Shown: positions 12,001 through 21,000 of the stretch, piece after piece | How the letters are laid out: every line of letters begins with the position of its first letter | Position numbering within the stretch: the stretch's first letter is position 1 | NCBI GenBank assembly: GCA_038204425.1 | Contig: JBBRCZ010000008.1 | Coordinates: 1 to 64,000, forward strand | From: Spirochaetia bacterium | GTDB taxonomy: Bacteria > Spirochaetota > Spirochaetia > DSM-27196 > Salinispiraceae | DNA: 64,000 bases | Direction: 5' to 3' | Made by a program: the position numbers

Positions 12001-15000
12001 GAACTTGGACAATGAAGAAATGCTTGCATTTGAACACAAGGGCAAGCAAATTGCCCTGTATAGTCTCGATGACGGCTACTATGCAACTGATGCACTTTGT
12101 ACACACGAACAAGCGCCGCTGTGCAACGGCTTTTTGGATGATGGCATTATCGAATGCCCTAAGCACAATGCGCGCTTTGACGTGAGGACTGGTAAAGTAC
12201 TGCGAAAACCTGCCAAGGAAAACCTCGTTAGCTACCCTACCAAGATAGAAGGGGATAGGCTGTTTGTTGGAATAGAGTCCTAAGCCAATGCAATTGCTAT
12301 TTTTTTGTCCTCTCTGGGGGAGTGAAAACCTTGCCTTTGAGCAGTTTTGCAAGCAGGTAAAAACTGCAGGCTTTGATGGTGTTGAGCTGAGTTTTGCTCT
12401 CGGCGACAAGGTGGCCCGTGACGAGCGGCTGCGCATCCTTGCTGACTTTGAGCTTAAGCACATAGCCCAACATTGGCAAACGATAAATGCCAACTTGGAT
12501 GAGCATCGCGCAGAGTTTGTGGCTCACCTAGATTTTCTGGCCAGCACCAATCCACTCTTTATCAATAGCCAAAGTGGACGGGACTGGTTTAGCAAAGAAG
12601 AGAATCTTTGGCTGTTGGATCAAGCAAGTGAGCGGGCCTCGGTCCATGGACTTAAAATCGTACATGAAACTCACCGTGGTAAATTTTCATTTAGCGCTCG
12701 CAGCACGTATGAGGTTCTGCAATCACGGCCCGATCTTCGCTTGACGGCTGATTTTTCGCATTGGTGCTGCGTCTCAGAATCACTTCTGGAAGACCAAGAA
12801 CTTTTTGTTCAAGCAGCCATCGAACGCGCTGATCACCTACACGCCAGAGTTGGTTTTGCTGAAGGTCCGCAAATTGTTGATCCTCGCGCGCCAGAGTGGC
12901 TGGGCACTGTCAATGCTCACTTGGTTTGGTGGGACCAAATAGTGGCTCAACACCTCGCCAAAGGTAGTCAACTATTGACTGTTTGTCCTGAGTTTGGACC
13001 CTGGCCATATATGGTACACCAAGCTTGGACGCAAGAACCGGTCGCTAGCCAGTGGGAATGTAATCTGCATATGCTCAACATGCTTCGGTCACGCTGGCAA
13101 ATCTAGAGCAAGTCTTATGGCTAGGCCTTAAGTGGCCGATACCTGTAAGCAAAGCCTGCACTACTTGGCAATATGCTTTCTTAGGGGTCACGCACAATGA
13201 GCGAACAATCAGCCGCTGATTTGAGAAGAATTTACATAATTGGGGCTGGATTTTCCGGCACCATGATTGCGCGCGAGATCCAAAACAAAGGTGTCTTGGG
13301 CACGGTAGAAGCTTTTCTTGACGACGACCAATCAAAAATTGGCAGCCGCATCGAAGGCATTCCAGTCTTAGGGCCGATCAACGATGCCTTGCATTTTATG
13401 CGTCCAAACAACAACGATGAAGCTTTAATTGCTATGCCAAGTGCTAGTACTGAGCAAATTCGTGTGCTCTACGCGCTACTTTCTCGTTCCCGATTTGCAC
13501 GCATTAGAATCTTGCCAGCGGTTAGTCAAATCATTGAGGGTGGGGCCCACCTTATCCAAACTCGCGACCTTGACCCACAAGACTTGCTGTCAAGGCCGCC
13601 AGTGAGTATCGGACTCAGGCAGAGTCTGAGCTACCTGCGAGGCAAACGAGTATTGATAACGGGGGCTGGCGGCAGCATCGGCAGTGAACTGGCGCGCCAA
13701 CTTCTCTTGGGCGGAGCAGAGCGTCTTTATTTGCTTGGTCACGGTGAGAACTCCATCTATCAAATTGACCGTGAGCTGCGCGTCTTGCAAGAAGAAGGTG
13801 TTGGAGAAAAAGCCACCATAGTGCCGATTATTGGCGAACTGCAAGATCCAGACTATTTGGATTTTTTGCTCAGTCGTCTCAAGGCCGATGTTATCTTTCA
13901 CACTGCAGCCTATAAACATGTGCCAATGATGGAAGAAAATCCTGTCATGGCCATCAAGAATAATGTTTTTGGAACCCAGTTTTTGTTAGATGCCGCCGAG
14001 CGTGCCAAGATTGAACGATTTGTACTTGTTTCAACCGATAAAGTTGTCAGTCCTCAGAGCATCTATGGTGCTAGCAAGCGCATCGCCGAGGCCTTGGTAC
14101 TTAGCCGGGACAAACATTCTGAGACACGTTTTATGGTAGTCAGGTTTGGCAATGTCCTAGGCAGCCGCGGTTCCATAGTTCCCTTGTTTAGAAACCAGAT
14201 TCTAAAGGGTGGGCCAGTTACTATTACGCATCCTGACACGTCGCGATACTTTATGACCATCCCTGAGGCATCGTCTTTGGTTCTCAAGGCAGGGGGAGTT
14301 GGCGAGAGTGGTCGCTTGTATCTTTTGGATATGGGTGAGCCGCTTTTGATCAGAGACTTGGCGGAACAAATGATTAAGTTCTATGGATATGAGCCTGGCA
14401 GGGACATCCGACTGGCCTATATTGGGTTGCGCGAGGGCGAAAAAGTACATGAGTCTCTGCACGAAAACTGGGAAATAGTTAGTGAAACACCTTACGCCAG
14501 AATCAGAGAACTCAGCAAGTCACTGGAGTGGATTCGTAGTACTAGCAATCTAAACGAACTATTAGAAGAGCTTCGACCTGTCTGTTTCTTTGACCCACGC
14601 AAGTCAAGTTACTATAGAAACAGACGTTTAATTCGAAGTATCATTAGAAGCTATCTGCCGAGCGTTGCCGAAAAACCCAAAGAAGCGGAGTACTAAGTGA
14701 TGGCACGTGAGCCAATTCCATTTGCACGACCAAGTTTGGGCCCGGAAGAAGAAGAGGCCGCGATTCGCGTTTTGCGATCGGGTTGGTTAACAACCGCGGC
14801 TGAGTGCCAGGCTTTTGAAGCTGAATTTGCACAGGCAACAAAGATGAACCAAGCTTTGGCGGTAAACTCAGCAACCTCGGGCCTGCACTTAGCTTTGGAA
14901 GCGCTCGGCATCCGAGCTGGCGACCAGATTGCAGTCAGTCCTTACACATTTACCGCTAGCTGCGAAATCATGCGCTACTTGGGCGCCGATCCGCTTTTTG

Positions 15001-18000: not shown

Positions 18001-21000
18001 TAGTGGAAGCAGCTTTACCAGTAGTTCGGTTGATTCACAACAGCTATTTCAAAAACTTTATCAAGCGTTAGATCAGGAGCCAGACCATGCGGGTTAATTT
18101 TTTGTTAAACGATGAACGTTATATTTTGGATATAGACGCCGAAACTACTATCCTTGCTATTCTAAGAAAAGAGCTTGGACAAAAAAGCATTCACGCCGCC
18201 TGCTCGGGAGGACAATGTGGCAGTTGCTTAATTCTTGTCAACAATCAAGCGGTACCCTCGTGCTTAATGCCAGCTTTCTTGCTGCGTGACGCAACAGTAG
18301 AAACTATTGAGGGCCTTAGCAGTCAAACAGGCTTTGCGGACATAGAAAAAGCTTTTTTAAAGACTCCCTATACTCCTTGCGCCTACTGTGCACCGTCTAA
18401 AGTTATCTTAACTGAATCACTTTTACGCAGTGAATCTCCACTCACCAGTTCCAGCATTGGTATGTCGATTCCTAAGCATTGGTGCAACTGCAATCAAGAA
18501 AGTGATTTTATAGCAGCTGTTTTGATGGCCAAGGATTTACGAAAAAAACGGGAGTTACGCCCAAATGGCTGATAGCAGAATTCTCATTCCGCTCAACGTT
18601 GTCGATCTACTTACTATCTTAAAAAAAAGACCGGATTGTATGATTTGGGCGGGTGGCACCTATTCTCAGACTAATCCAATAATTCGACTTGATATTGCCA
18701 ATCGAGATATCATCAGTCTTCAGCGCCTAGAAGAGCTAAATCGAATATATCGAACCGATCGTTTAGTAGAAATTGGCGCACGTTGCACGCTTGAGCGACT
18801 ACTCAAACTTGAAGACCACGTCGTGCCGGCTGGCCTAAAACTGGCTATCTTATCAAGCGTGCCGGCACCGGCGCGCAGTTTGGCAACTTTGGGTGGCAAT
18901 GTTTGCATTCACGACCAGATCCTCAACCTTCTGCCATGGTTGGCTATTGCGGATGCTCGCTTTGAAATAAGAAAGCAAGGCAGCGTTCGTTATTGCATGG
19001 CTCGACACTTTATCGAACCTGATGATTTTCCTAAAATAGACGCCAATGAGCTTTTGTGCAAAATTCGCATACCGCTTAACCGCTGGAACTTCCAGCAGTT
19101 TAGAAGGATCGAATTTCAAAATGAGCACCAAAAGCTGCCATTCTACGTTTGTAACTTTGCAAGCATTCACAAAGAAACCCTAGATGATTGCCGAATGGGC
19201 TTGGCTTTTTCCAACCAGAAATACTTCTTTTTTCCACGACTCGATGCTGACTTTCAGGGCCAACGCTTACCACTTAGCAAAAAGTTTTGCAAATCTTGGT
19301 TAGATCGCTTCCTAGAACAATTCAAACAAGGCTACGAAGTCGATGATCCCCAACTTCTCTATCAGATCACTATTTCACTAGAAAGCTTGTTGGACAAACT
19401 CAGGAAGACAGACTAGTTGTGCTTGTGGGTTTTGTTGCCTTGTCAGCACTTTGTCGGTCAAACTCAAATTCTAGCCCCGACCACTTTAGCTTAAGTTTAT
19501 CAGATTCAAGACTATAGGTGACGCCCTGACTGGTCCCAAGTGAACTAATCTTGACCGTTTTTCCATCTTCAAATTTCCATATTATGTCGTCGGTTCTACC
19601 ATCAAAACCTCGCACAGTACCGGTGCCATTTTCGTTAAAGTCAAAAGTCATCAGCTCCCTCTTGTTATCCTTGACTCGTTCGGTTTTCCAAGAGCCAATC
19701 AGGGTCTTTTGTGGTCCACAGCCTTGCATAGTGAGCATGGTCATTAGCAGTACAGCGACAGTTGTCAAAATCTTTGTTCCTTTGGCCATAGAAAATTCAC
19801 CTTTTTTGTTTTTGTAAAATTTGCAGCTTGCTCAATCTCTAGTCAGAAACTGCAAGGCATTCTCAATCAGTCTCTGGTTGGCGGGTCGAGCAAAATCTAA
19901 GTACCCAAAATTGCAGTGGCCTAGTGCAACGACACGGGCATCTGCCTTGATCCCAGCGTAGGCAACGGGCGATCTGTTGCTGTCCACTAAGAGCACTTGG
20001 TTGCGATAACCACTGTCTAACGACACCAAAGTTGACCAGATCATTTTCTCAAGATCAACTTTTTCTATCCCTTCAACAATATTGCTCAAACCGCTAACTT
20101 CTACGCGATCACTCACTGAAGTGTTTCTACTATACTGCATGTTAAAATAGCTCAACAAGCGATTATAAGGAAACTCACCACTCGGATAGTAGTCATAGTT
20201 CCATGCAATCGCTAGTGACAAAATGCGGCCACCTTGATCAAAGAATTTTTTCAGAGCCGCTAGCTCTTGGCTAGAATAGTCAGGAATTCCTGTGATAAAG
20301 GTTAGCACAATACAAGAATTTTGCGCCAAAATTGTATCATCAAGTCGATCATAGACTTCGGTTGCTTCATATCCCTGTTCTCTCAAAAACTTAACAAACT
20401 CATTGCTTGATCGTCCGTGGTACTGGTCAATCAGGAGCTTCTTGCGAATGCCAGATTTTATGGCTGGGTCGCTAAATAAAAAGTCTTTTTTATTGTTGGC
20501 AAGCGCCTGCATCTCATCGACTCTATAAATCTTTAGGGCCTCACTCTTAGAAACCGGATTGTAAGGCGATGCGTCAATAGTAGTAAGTCGCTGCCAATGA
20601 TCGGGGACTGCATGGCCTATTTGGTCAAGTTGATGCATAAATGACATCCAATGGTAGCGCGAGCCACCAACAACCGTATAAGCAGCAGTTTCTCTGGTGA
20701 GCTTGTCAAATCTATCTTGGTAAGGTGTTTCCCAAATGCTGCGCCCATCCAGAGCAAAGGACAGGTAGCCGAGGTATTTGTTGCTAGTATAAAAGTTAAA
20801 GTAGTCGATAAAAAAATTATCGGCGACTACGGGTCTTGGTTCGTTTGCCATGCGTTTAGCTAAGAATTCACTTGCCAGCTCCAGGTCCTTGCGCGCATCC
20901 TTTACTTTTCCATAGTGCTCGCTGGCAAAAAAAATAGACACTGCTGAAAATGAGAGAAATATGACTATGCTTAGCACTTTGAGGGCTATTTTTTTGCTCA

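What a model noticed while it worked through the whole genome (the two positions that open the first line are those of the whole stretch)
13197..19416. Spirochaetia-wide five-gene operon joining amino-sugar nucleotide enzymes (PglF/PglE-like) to a fast-evolving xanthine-d [...]
g01537-g01541 form a tightly packed operon: a PglF/EpsC-type UDP-sugar 4,6-dehydratase, a DegT/PglE-type sugar aminotransferase, and the three subunits of a xanthine dehydrogenase/aldehyde oxidase-family enzyme (large g01539, 2x[2Fe-2S] small g01540, FAD-binding medium g01541). The same five genes in the same order are found in distant Spirochaetia, with the sugar enzymes 44-66% identical and the redox subunits only 22-36%. 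Such strict synteny means that the molybdoenzyme works with the 4-amino-4,6-dideoxy-sugar pathway; I propose that it oxidises or hydroxylates a nucleotide-sugar or its glycan product, a substrate class not known for this enzyme family.
Evidence so far: Call 135: g01537 42% to B. subtilis EpsC; g01538 37% to SpsC; g01539 Pfam MoCoBD_1 only, 20% to Sulfolobus glyceraldehyde dehydrogenase large chain; g01540 Fer2+Fer2_2; g01541 FAD_binding_5; ends/starts 14696/14700, 15935/15926, 18097/18087, 18572/18565. neighbours.tsv: DegT_DnrJ_EryC1 next to MoCoBD_1 in 67 of the 98 other genomes of the order and in 1815 species genomes overall. Call 142: an orthologue of g01539 (E<=1e-40, 22-27% identity) in 26 of 60 other Spirochaetia genomes sampled over 40 families. 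Calls 172-173: in all 5 loci fetched from 5 families the order is DegT-MoL-MoS-MoM on one strand, preceded by PglF in 4. Molybdopterin pathway genes g01136-g01142. Call 175: no paper found [...]
(Added by a program. Inside this text positions count along the whole contig: contig position 1 is position 1 of the stretch shown here. "Call 12" and the like, gene names such as g00115 and contig names such as C1 are that model's own, and its searches are not shown. The text may have been shortened before it was handed on; [...] marks where a part breaks off. The agent that wrote the report below was given it as the finding of a first reader that could run no searches.)

Follow-up and report, generated by a model that had tools for sequence, protein, structure and literature searches.

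The report
Spirochaete amino-sugar operon, molybdenum-less XDH-like complex
Five tightly packed spirochaete genes join two amino-sugar enzymes to a xanthine-dehydrogenase-like flavin and iron-sulfur complex that has lost every sequence signature of its molybdenum cofactor, so its chemistry is unknown and the 'xanthine dehydrogenase' label given to its Lyme-disease relative is doubtful.

Summary
Five overlapping + strand genes (13197-19416) encode a soluble PglF-type UDP-HexNAc 4,6-dehydratase, a DegT aminotransferase that keeps its catalytic lysine, and an XDH-family L-S-M trio. The same order is kept in 19 of 20 loci from the window's order. It is also kept in 28 of the 29 named spirochaete loci that hold enough DNA to tell.

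The large subunit has the XDH fold, but none of 57 operon-type ('group A') sequences keeps any of four molybdenum-cofactor motifs. All 5 canonical spirochaete XDHs ('group B'), which sit in purine-catabolism clusters, keep all four. Group A occurs in closed genomes in which no cofactor-synthesis gene was found. That argument is weakened because two such genomes also carry near-canonical XDH paralogues.

The window's small and medium subunits keep all eight [2Fe-2S] cysteines and both FAD motifs. Within genera the trio is under purifying selection (dN/dS about 0.1-0.2).

A 1.14-Mb genome keeps the whole operon. A Borrelia-like genome keeps only a further eroded trio, which matches the published 'xdhACB' locus by gene sizes and order.

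My best reading is a molybdenum-independent flavin/Fe-S complex tied to an amino-sugar pathway, perhaps the flagellin nonulosonic-acid pathway. The substrate is unknown. Earlier notes of this scan found the same operon on four other genomes.

The parts
13197..14696 (+). Soluble short-form PglF/CapD-type UDP-HexNAc 4,6-dehydratase (499 aa)
   Evidence: Polysacc_synt_2 at 4.4e-104. The closest solved relative is C. jejuni PglF (WlaL) at 1.4e-74. The STDK catalytic triad and a YxxxK motif are present. It has no hydrophobic segment, against 3-4 in each of 5 long non-spirochaete forms. It is 54-67% identical across the order.
14697..15935 (+). DegT-family sugar aminotransferase (412 aa)
   Evidence: DegT_DnrJ_EryC1 at 6.5e-98. 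The best NCBIfam matches, PseC (330 bits) and ArnB (293 bits), are both under their cut-offs. The closest solved relative is ArnB 1mdo at 1e-71, and the PLP lysine aligns. K200 is invariant in 25 of 25 orthologues.
15926..18097 (+). XDH-family large subunit with an eroded molybdenum-cofactor site (723 aa)
   Evidence: Pfam matches. Model pLDDT 86.6. Foldseek TM about 0.8 to XDH, MOP and 4-HBCR at 14-17% identity. The motifs GG.FGGK, [FYL]RG[FP]G, [MI]GQG and KR[HQ]P are absent. The window has A186, L221, Q258 and S331 where bovine XO has Q767, E802, R880 and R912. E675 aligns with E1261.
18087..18572 (+). Small subunit with two [2Fe-2S] sites (161 aa)
   Evidence: Fer2 and Fer2_2. The eight cysteines C39, C44, C47, C59, C98, C101, C133 and C135 are each kept in 33-48 of 50 orthologues.
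18565..19416 (+). FAD-binding medium subunit (283 aa)
   Evidence: FAD_binding_5 at 3.8e-23. The AGGT and AT.GGN motifs are kept in the window and in the 49-sequence consensus. The closest solved relative is the quinoline oxidoreductase M subunit at 2.3e-7.

Best explanation
Shown. This is a conserved operon of class Spirochaetia. Its first two products are intact enzymes that should turn UDP-HexNAc into a UDP-4-amino-4,6-dideoxy-HexNAc. Its last three products form a heterotrimer-type complex descended from a canonical xanthine dehydrogenase. That complex keeps the fold, the two [2Fe-2S] sites and the FAD site in this genome. Its large subunit has lost every sequence signature of molybdenum-cofactor binding. 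It is nevertheless under purifying selection.

Inferred. The complex is not a molybdenum hydroxylase. It works as a flavin/iron-sulfur electron-transfer unit whose remodelled large subunit offers a new site or a docking surface. It serves a redox step linked to the amino sugar made by the two upstream enzymes. The most likely setting is the nonulosonic-acid (pseudaminic-type) glycan of spirochaete flagellins. In the smallest genome the operon's dehydratase and aminotransferase are the only candidates for the first two steps of that pathway.

Odds for the single steps:
- not molybdenum-dependent: about 0.8
- still a redox enzyme in this genome: about 0.6
- acts on the sugar pathway: about 0.45
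- that pathway is the flagellin glycan: about 0.3
For: Gene order and coupling.

Intact sugar enzymes: the STDK triad and YxxxK motif, and the PLP lysine.

XDH fold.

Motif loss: none of 57 group-A sequences keeps any of four motifs, against 5 of 5 group-B sequences that keep all four. Group B lies beside XdhC, xanthine permeases, amidohydrolases and a MobA-like gene.

Single origin: group A is one side of a branch (20 of 20 rows, SH-aLRT 100) in a quick tree.

Cofactor pathway: 21 of 41 related genomes show neither MoaC nor MoeA_N, and 20 of those 21 have the large subunit. The closed genomes G003, G014, G142 and G055 lack the pathway. The group-B genome G229 has it.

Fe-S and FAD sites are kept.

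Selection: dN/dS of the large subunit is 0.09-0.21 in five within-genus pairs.

In G055, DegT stays fused to the trio although PglF has moved 9 kb away.

The 1.14-Mb genome G142 has a NeuB-family synthase and a CMP-transferase/methyltransferase fusion. It has only one PglF-type dehydratase and one strong DegT, both in the operon.

The T. denticola flagellin glycan is a 2-methoxy-4,5,6-trihydroxy-hexanoyl pseudaminic-type acid (PMC13439194, passages).
Against: The trio occurs without the sugar pair in G185, where a NusG paralogue precedes the trio and no PglF exists, and in a Borrelia-like genome. It is unlinked from the pair in G004 and not adjacent to it in L045.

The window's own genome does make the cofactor. 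Its large subunit keeps E675 and an SGPS..SR stretch, so cofactor use cannot be excluded here from sequence alone.

Two closed genomes with no cofactor pathway found (G006, G055) still carry canonical or near-canonical XDH-family paralogues. Absence of the pathway is therefore weak evidence in this group.

G000 and G055 have separate dehydratase and aminotransferase pairs inside or beside nonulosonic-acid clusters. The flagellin link thus rests on one small genome.

In the small genomes the N-terminal [2Fe-2S] cysteines are lost, and in the Borrelia-like one the FAD motifs are lost too. This argues against a conserved redox chain.

No substrate, cofactor or activity was measured.
Confidence: 0.5

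Rival explanations
1. Pseudoenzyme or scaffold. The trio no longer catalyses anything. It survives as a structural, sensing (for example redox or peroxide) or regulatory complex, and it sits in the operon only for co-expression.
For: No conserved polar residue marks a new active site. The 50 positions kept in at least 80% of 57 group-A sequences are mostly glycines, prolines and residues shared with group B. Fe-S and FAD ligands are lost stepwise in the small genomes. The trio persists without the sugar genes. The Borrelia knock-out has a peroxide-sensitivity phenotype with no enzyme activity shown (PMC9993122; abstract and sections 15 and 18 read).
Against: All eight cysteines and both FAD motifs are kept in the window and in most free-living relatives. 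Purifying selection acts on all three genes. Overlapping start and stop codons with DegT are widely kept.
Confidence: 0.25
2. The trio is a genuine, very divergent molybdenum hydroxylase that oxidises or hydroxylates a nucleotide sugar or its glycan.
For: XDH fold. The window keeps E675 at the catalytic-base position, and this genome has moaA, moaC and moeA. An XDH-like complex does act in an amino-sugar-derived pathway in Bacillota, where it oxidises a pyrrole aldehyde (PMC12983305, passages).
Against: None of 57 sequences keeps any of the four cofactor motifs. The Q767, E802, R880 and R912 equivalents are A, L, Q and S in the window. The operon is present in closed genomes without the pathway. 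This genome's pathway genes lie beside another molybdoenzyme.
Confidence: 0.07
3. It is a true xanthine dehydrogenase that makes urate as an antioxidant, as proposed for the Borrelia locus bb_0554-bb_0556.
For: The published mutant is peroxide-sensitive, and both urate and allopurinol modulate that sensitivity (PMC9993122). Group A descends from the same family as purine-type XDHs.
Against: The authors could not show the activity. The substrate and cofactor residues are gone. The Borrelia-like trio also lacks the FAD motifs and four of the eight cluster cysteines. No purine-catabolism genes neighbour group A, whereas they do neighbour group B.
Confidence: 0.04

Closest known systems
Canonical three-subunit bacterial xanthine dehydrogenases and molybdenum hydroxylases (R. 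capsulatus XDH 1jro, D. gigas MOP 1sij, 4-hydroxybenzoyl-CoA reductase 1rm6; spirochaete 'group B' loci L116, L118, L119, L124, L125)
   Same: The same L, S and M subunits. The same fold (TM about 0.8). The same two [2Fe-2S] motifs and FAD motifs.
   Different: All four cofactor motifs are missing (0 of 57 against 5 of 5). There are no XdhC, permease or amidohydrolase neighbours; the neighbours are sugar enzymes instead. Divergence is deep: 27% median identity within one order, against 41% across classes for group B.
Borrelia burgdorferi 'xdhACB' (bb_0554-bb_0556; Phelan et al. 2023, PMC9993122)
   Same: A Borrelia-like genome carries three overlapping genes of 621, 153 and 287 aa in L-S-M order. 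They match the group-A profiles at 4.4e-6 (L), 4.4e-19 (S) and 1.2e-24 (M). The paper gives 622, 155 and 289 aa.
   Different: There are no PglF or DegT genes beside it and no operon-type ones elsewhere in that genome. The N-terminal cluster cysteines and the FAD motifs are lost. That the locus I analysed is bb_0554-0556 itself is inferred from sizes, order and chromosome position, not from names.
PglF/PglE (C. jejuni bacillosamine) and PseB/PseC (pseudaminic acid), the first two steps of those pathways
   Same: A dehydratase with the STDK triad, followed by a lysine-bearing DegT aminotransferase.
   Different: The dehydratase lacks the membrane anchor of PglF and has Tyr where PglF has Met. 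The aminotransferase is under the PseC and ArnB equivalog cut-offs. No acetyltransferase follows; an XDH-like trio does.
E1/E3 (AscC/AscD) 3-deoxygenation of CDP-4-keto-6-deoxyglucose (recalled from the literature, not from a call)
   Same: A DegT-family enzyme works with a FAD plus plant-type [2Fe-2S] electron donor on a 4-keto-6-deoxy nucleotide sugar. This is the nearest known way of working for such a gene set.
   Different: E1 carries His in place of the PLP lysine and has its own cluster, whereas this DegT keeps the lysine. E3 is a ferredoxin-NADP reductase-type protein, not an XDH-type trio.
XDH-like complex Man6/7/11 of the manlipyrrolamide cluster (PMC12983305)
   Same: An XDH-family complex encoded in a cluster with a DegT aminotransferase and nucleotide-sugar enzymes.
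   Different: That complex oxidises a pyrrole aldehyde and comes with PucA/PucB-type cofactor maturation genes. None of these is found here.

Membership tests
Xanthine oxidase/dehydrogenase family (molybdenum hydroxylases), large subunit | Hammerhead + MoCoBD_1 + MoCoBD_2 fold | tested here: met
   Pfam. The profile matches bovine XO and 4-HBCR at 3.4e-81. Model pLDDT 86.6, TM about 0.8.
Xanthine oxidase/dehydrogenase family (molybdenum hydroxylases), large subunit | Cofactor-binding motifs GGGFGGK, A[FY]RG[FP]G, MGQG and KRHP | tested here: not met
   None of 57 group-A sequences, the window included, has any of the four. All 5 group-B sequences have all four.
Xanthine oxidase/dehydrogenase family (molybdenum hydroxylases), large subunit | Catalytic base Glu (bovine E1261) and the Mo=O-binding Gln (Q767) | tested here: inconclusive
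   The window has E675 but A186. Across group A the base position is E in 36 and D in 8 of 57, and the Gln position is Q in 41 of 57.
Xanthine oxidase/dehydrogenase family (molybdenum hydroxylases), holoenzyme | A molybdenum-cofactor synthesis pathway in the same genome | tested here: inconclusive
   Present in G000, but beside another molybdoenzyme. Not found in 21 of 41 relatives or in the closed genomes G003, G006, G014, G055 and G142. G006 and G055 nevertheless carry near-canonical paralogues.
Xanthine oxidase/dehydrogenase family, small and medium subunits | Eight cysteines for two [2Fe-2S] clusters, and the AGGT and T.GGN FAD motifs | tested here: met
   Met in the window and in most orthologues. 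Not met in the 1.14-Mb genome (first cluster) or in the Borrelia-like genome (first cluster and FAD motifs).
PglF/CapD/WbpM UDP-HexNAc 4,6-dehydratases | Polysacc_synt_2 domain with the Thr-Asp-Lys catalytic triad and a Rossmann NAD site | tested here: met
   4.4e-104. STDK and TGAGGSIG align with PglF 5bju/5bjy.
PglF/CapD/WbpM UDP-HexNAc 4,6-dehydratases | N-terminal membrane anchor of the long forms | tested here: not met
   No hydrophobic segment, against 3-4 in each of 5 long forms.
DegT/DnrJ/EryC1 sugar aminotransferases | The fold and the PLP-binding lysine | tested here: met
   6.5e-98. The lysine aligns with ArnB K188 and is invariant in 25 of 25.
PseC or ArnB equivalogs (NCBIfam) | Score over the curated cut-off | tested here: not met
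   PseC 329.9 against 423.5; ArnB 292.8 against 631.
PMP-dependent 3-dehydrases (E1/ColD type) | His in place of the PLP lysine (recalled) | tested here: not met
   The lysine is kept. RfbH scores only 5e-34.
NusG-paralogue (LoaP-like)-headed form of this operon, as in earlier scan notes | A NusG paralogue directly upstream of PglF | tested here: not met
   Present in 41 of 60 loci with operon-type PglF, gaps of -37 to +65 nt. In the window the upstream gene is a TIM-barrel protein. The nearest NusG paralogue of G000 lies on another contig and heads a different sugar cluster.

The most novel reading that the evidence does not exclude
The emptied cofactor pocket of the large subunit once held a pterin-diphosphate-cytidine. 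It now takes the diphosphate-linked nucleotide sugar made by the two upstream enzymes. The FAD and [2Fe-2S] chain then performs a one-electron or two-electron step on that amino sugar, or on the unusual 3-deoxy-hexanoyl N-acyl group of the treponemal flagellin glycan. This would be a metal-cofactor-free enzyme on an XDH scaffold, with a substrate class new to the family. It would also mean that the Lyme-disease 'xanthine dehydrogenase' needed for infection is not one.
Probability: 0.15. Interest if true: 0.85.

Novelty: new variant of a known kind. Interest (0 to 1): 0.6.

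Why it matters
The XDH family is taken to be uniformly molybdenum-dependent. A clade that has shed the cofactor signatures would show a new use of the scaffold, and this clade has three further marks of an important function. It stays under selection. It is kept in a 1.14-Mb genome. Its likely Borrelia member is required for infection of mice and survival in ticks (PMC9993122).

The finding makes a concrete question testable in tractable Treponema: what does the trio do to the amino sugar or to the flagellin glycan?

It also warns that the annotations 'xanthine dehydrogenase' and 'quinoline oxidoreductase' in Treponema and Borrelia genomes are probably wrong as statements of function.

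Tried and rejected
- The search for related loci with alignment A1 failed because no stretch was conserved enough. I then used the PglF protein alone.
- The word-indexed homologue searches gave few true relatives, because the large subunit diverges too fast. The full HMMER scan gave 179 clusters at E <= 1e-30.
- The E1/ColD-type dehydrase idea was dropped because the PLP lysine is kept.
- The promoter and terminator scan of 10700-20000 found fewer promoter-like sites than shuffles did (7 against 10.6) and no terminator at the operon's ends. It says nothing about the transcription unit.
- Rfam found nothing in 7000-25000 at E <= 0.1.
- A search for a new conserved polar site in group A gave only a group-specific RF..LP stretch (residues 533-539) plus W187, E295, P682 and Q691. 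No function is proposed for these.
- The group-A medium subunit did not find the Borrelia-like gene by protein search. A Pfam search found it weakly (E about 0.005), and my own profiles confirmed it.
- Complex prediction of the large subunit (residues 140-723) with DegT returned 'no answer' (score 0.00; controls not folded). This says nothing either way about binding.
- Kurniyati et al. 2017 (PMC5182079), the source of the flagellin glycan structure and of any gene assignments, is not held. What it says about these genes could bear on the flagellin link.
- Five literature searches found no paper that ties PglF/DegT to the XDH-like trio in spirochaetes.

Full report
OBSERVATION.
- 13197-14696 (499 aa)
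- 14697-15935 (412 aa)
- 15926-18097 (723 aa)
- 18087-18572 (161 aa)
- 18565-19416 (283 aa)

The junctions are 0 nt apart, then overlaps of 10, 11 and 8 nt.

Pfam gives Polysacc_synt_2 (4.4e-104) and DegT_DnrJ_EryC1 (6.5e-98). The large subunit matches MoCoBD_1 (7.7e-26), a partial MoCoBD_2 (5.7e-7, profile positions 14-156 of 283) and a weak hammerhead (0.0077). The small subunit matches Fer2 and Fer2_2, and the medium subunit FAD_binding_5 (3.8e-23). No NCBIfam equivalog cut-off is reached by any of the five. None of the five has a hydrophobic segment.

SYNTENY. The large subunit (L) has a match in 40 of 41 genomes of the window's order. I fetched 20 of those places. Nineteen show PglF-DegT-L-S-M on one strand and one (L026) shows L-S-M alone. 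None of the window's eight flanking genes recurs in these loci.

A scan of named genome contigs with PglF kept the best 80 of 595 confirmed stretches. Thirty-eight are spirochaete loci at 56-66% identity, from Treponema, T. primitia, Gracilinema, Alkalispirochaeta and Spirochaeta. Of these 38:
- 25 have all five genes
- 3 have DegT-L-S-M, with PglF cut or split
- 9 end too early to tell
- 1 (L045) switches strand after DegT

The other 42 loci, from other phyla and from Leptospira at 39-47% identity, have the long membrane-anchored PglF. None of the 42 has an XDH-like neighbour.

THE SUGAR ENZYMES ARE INTACT. The dehydratase aligns best with C. jejuni PglF (1.4e-74). It keeps the Ser-Thr-Asp-Lys stretch and the NAD glycines, and it has Tyr where PglF has Met. 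It lacks the 3-4 N-terminal membrane helices seen in 5 of 5 long forms.

The aminotransferase is closest to ArnB (1e-71), and the PLP lysine aligns. That lysine is invariant in 25 of 25 orthologues. It is therefore a true aminotransferase, not an E1/ColD-type dehydrase.

THE TRIO IS XDH-DERIVED BUT HAS LOST THE COFACTOR SIGNATURES. I aligned the window's L with 42 of the 150 hits listed by the full HMMER scan, choosing full-length ones spread over the ranking. The profile matches bovine xanthine oxidase and 4-hydroxybenzoyl-CoA reductase at 3.4e-81. The AlphaFold model has pLDDT 86.6 and superposes on XDH, MOP and 4-HBCR at TM about 0.8 and 14-17% identity.

I read the family motifs off the residue-level alignment to the solved enzymes. 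I then compared 62 large subunits taken from the loci. Five of them form 'group B' (L116, L118, L119, L124, L125). They come from other classes of the phylum and carry GG.FGGK, [FYL]RG[FP]G, [MI]GQG and KR[HQ]P in 5 of 5 each. They lie beside XdhC, xanthine/uracil permeases, amidohydrolases, a MobA-like transferase, carbamate kinase, an OTCase-like gene, an M20 peptidase and PALP enzymes. That is a purine-catabolism setting.

The other 57 form 'group A'. They include the window and L115, which my script had mislabelled as B. They carry each of the four motifs in 0 of 57. At the positions of the bovine residues, group A reads as follows:

| Bovine residue | Group A (of 57) | Window |
|---|---|---|
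| Q767 | Q in 41 | A |
| E802 | hydrophobic in 56 | L |
| R880 | R in 29 | Q |
| R912 | R in 3 | S |
| E1261 | E in 36, D in 8 | E |

A quick maximum-likelihood tree was built from 39 rows: 20 of the 57 group-A rows, all 5 group-B rows and 14 canonical proteins. It puts group A on one side of a branch (SH-aLRT 100, stem about 0.6). The window's tip is among the longest, at 1.52. Long-branch effects cannot be excluded, and group B is not one clade.

S AND M KEEP THEIR SITES HERE. In S, seven of the eight cluster cysteines are each kept in 42-48 of 50 orthologues, and C133 in 33 of 50. In M, the AGGT and AT.GGN motifs are kept in the window and in the 49-sequence consensus.

COFACTOR PATHWAY. 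MoaC is found in 18 of 41 related genomes and MoeA_N in 18 of 41. Twenty-one genomes have neither, and 20 of those 21 have L. The closed genomes G003, G006 and G014 also lack the MoaA C-terminal domain and MoaE. G003 and G006 lack the MogA/MoaB domain too. G014 has one match to it, on a domain that I recall also occurs outside the pathway. All three carry the intact operon.

G142, G055, G185 and G164 lack MoaC and MoeA_N, while the group-B genome G229 has both.

Against this line of argument, G006 also holds a fully canonical XDH cluster, and G055 holds a near-canonical S-M-L trio. 'No pathway found' therefore does not prove 'no cofactor enzyme' in these bacteria. I leave this unexplained.

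In the window's own genome, moaA, moaC and moeA lie at C5:30.5-33.1 kb, directly after a Mo-bisPGD-type enzyme at C5:27996-29267. Their presence is therefore no evidence for the trio.

HOW TIGHT IS THE LINK TO THE SUGAR GENES? In a sample of 201 genomes of the phylum, the operon-type PglF (57-63% identity, E <= 2e-170) occurs in 20 of the 24 genomes of the window's class. It occurs in none of the genomes of other classes, which have 36-48% forms. Strong group-A L matches follow the same class.

The exceptions are these:
- G004, of the window's own family, has the sugar pair on another contig.
- In G055, three S41 peptidase genes separate PglF from DegT-L-S-M.
- G185 (1.5 Mb) has a NusG paralogue followed by the trio, and no PglF.
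- In L045 the trio is not adjacent to DegT.

A NusG paralogue sits directly before PglF in 41 of 60 loci, but not in the window. There a FA_desaturase-type gene, a MocE-like Rieske ferredoxin and a TIM-barrel gene precede the operon by 90 bp. The nearest NusG paralogue of G000 (36% identical) heads a legionaminic-type nonulosonic-acid cluster on contig 6.

SMALL GENOMES AND THE LITERATURE. A closed 1,139,633-bp genome (G142) keeps all five genes. From memory, its gene order recalls T. pallidum TP0077-TP0081. An in-silico paper lists TPASS_0079 and TPASS_0081 as 'xanthine dehydrogenase' (PMC4403809, one table passage). In G142 the four cysteines of the N-terminal cluster of S are gone and the C-terminal four are kept.

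A genome with a 917-kb chromosome (G164) has three overlapping genes of 621, 153 and 287 aa. They match my group-A profiles at 4.4e-6, 4.4e-19 and 1.2e-24. Their sizes and order fit bb_0554-bb_0556. Phelan et al. named that locus xdhACB after showing that its deletion makes B. burgdorferi peroxide-sensitive and non-infectious. They state that they could not show the enzyme activity (PMC9993122; abstract and sections 15 and 18 read). The Borrelia-like S lacks the N-terminal cluster cysteines, and its M lacks both FAD motifs. No PglF, strong DegT, NeuB or CMP-transferase was found in that genome.

SELECTION. Nei-Gojobori dN/dS values between congeners, from five pairs, are:
- L: 0.09-0.21
- DegT: 0.14-0.25
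- PglF: 0.05-0.12
- M: 0.11-0.29

In the two unsaturated pairs, L gives 0.109 and 0.103. At short range the dN of L is no larger than that of DegT. The trio is therefore a working gene set with few invariant sites, not a decaying one.

WHAT THE SUGAR PAIR MAY BE FOR. G142 has a NeuB-family synthase. It also has an 862-aa fusion of a CMP-sugar transferase domain with a C-terminal methyltransferase, which is also present in G055. It has only one PglF-type dehydratase and one strong DegT, both in the operon.

I infer, and have not shown, that the operon's pair supplies the 4-amino sugar for this pathway. G000 and G055 have further dehydratase and aminotransferase pairs, so this inference rests on one genome.

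MECHANISM AND ODDS. Shown: the gene order, the intact sugar enzymes, the XDH fold, the loss of cofactor motifs, the kept Fe-S and FAD motifs in this genome, and purifying selection. Inferred: a molybdenum-independent flavin/Fe-S complex that serves a redox step tied to the amino sugar (about 0.45), perhaps in flagellin glycan synthesis (about 0.3). The rivals are a non-catalytic scaffold or sensor (0.25), a true but odd molybdenum hydroxylase (0.07) and a true xanthine dehydrogenase (0.04).

EARLIER NOTES OF THIS SCAN. One search returned four notes on other genomes that describe the same operon, there with a NusG paralogue, as lacking molybdenum signatures. One of them pointed to the Borrelia paper. 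I re-tested these claims here.
- the group A and group B contrast, with its contexts
- the counter-examples to the pathway argument
- the stepwise loss of Fe-S and FAD ligands in small genomes
- the dN/dS values
- the gene inventory that links the sugar pair to a nonulosonic-acid pathway

Five literature searches found no paper on the operon itself.

Noticed in passing
window 10959-13106 (+): Three overlapping or abutting genes lie directly upstream of the operon, 90 bp from PglF. They are a FA_desaturase-family oxygenase, a MocE-family Rieske ferredoxin (TIGR02377, 100 bits, under its cut-off) and a xylose-isomerase-like TIM barrel. From memory, the set recalls the MocD/MocE/MocC genes of rhizopine demethylation. 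It is not found at any of the 20 related loci.
   Followed up: partly
window 19832-23401 (-): A 736-aa PMT/ArnT-like polyprenyl-sugar glycosyltransferase and an Lnb-family membrane protein converge on the operon's end. The operon's DegT is closest to ArnB among solved structures. The neighbourhood is not conserved elsewhere.
   Followed up: partly
window 8027-10870 (+): A 947-aa ORF with no Pfam or NCBIfam match.
   Followed up: no
L135 (G000:C6:43500-60000) 687-15252 (+): A NusG paralogue and an HTH gene head a legionaminic-type nonulosonic-acid cluster. It holds a 4,6-dehydratase, DegT, a PglD-like acetyltransferase, NeuB, a hydrolysing 2-epimerase, a CBS-NTP transferase, HisF/HisH-like genes, a GFO oxidoreductase, a CMP-transferase and an SDR.
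   Followed up: partly
L139 (G006:C1:2644000-2658000) 216-13928 (-); L140 (G055:C1:20000-32000) 4904-8279 (-): Two closed genomes gave no match to MoaC, MoeA_N, MoaE or the MogA/MoaB domain (and, for G006, none to the MoaA C-terminal domain). They still carry a canonical (G006) or near-canonical (G055, S-M-L order) XDH-family enzyme, and the G006 one sits in a purine-type cluster. This could mean cofactor uptake, an unknown pathway or dead genes.
   Followed up: partly
L113 10270-10737 (+); L132 7611-8932 (+): In the 1.14-Mb genome and in the Borrelia-like genome the small subunit has lost all four cysteines of the N-terminal plant-type [2Fe-2S] site but keeps the C-terminal CxxC...CxC. The Borrelia-like and G185 medium subunits have also lost the AGGT motif.
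   Followed up: yes
L137 1328-3916 (+); L138 1320-3965 (-): A conserved fusion protein of 862 or 881 aa. It has an N-terminal CMP-sugar transferase domain, an unassigned middle of about 400 residues and a C-terminal methyltransferase. It is a candidate for activating and O-methylating the flagellin glycan.
   Followed up: partly
G000:C5:27996-33135: A Mo-bisPGD-family enzyme (725-aa frame) is followed by moaA, moaC and moeA. It is the likely client of this genome's cofactor pathway.
   Followed up: partly
L114 11393-18472 (-): Three paralogous S41 peptidase genes are inserted between PglF and DegT in a closed 2.76-Mb genome.
   Followed up: no
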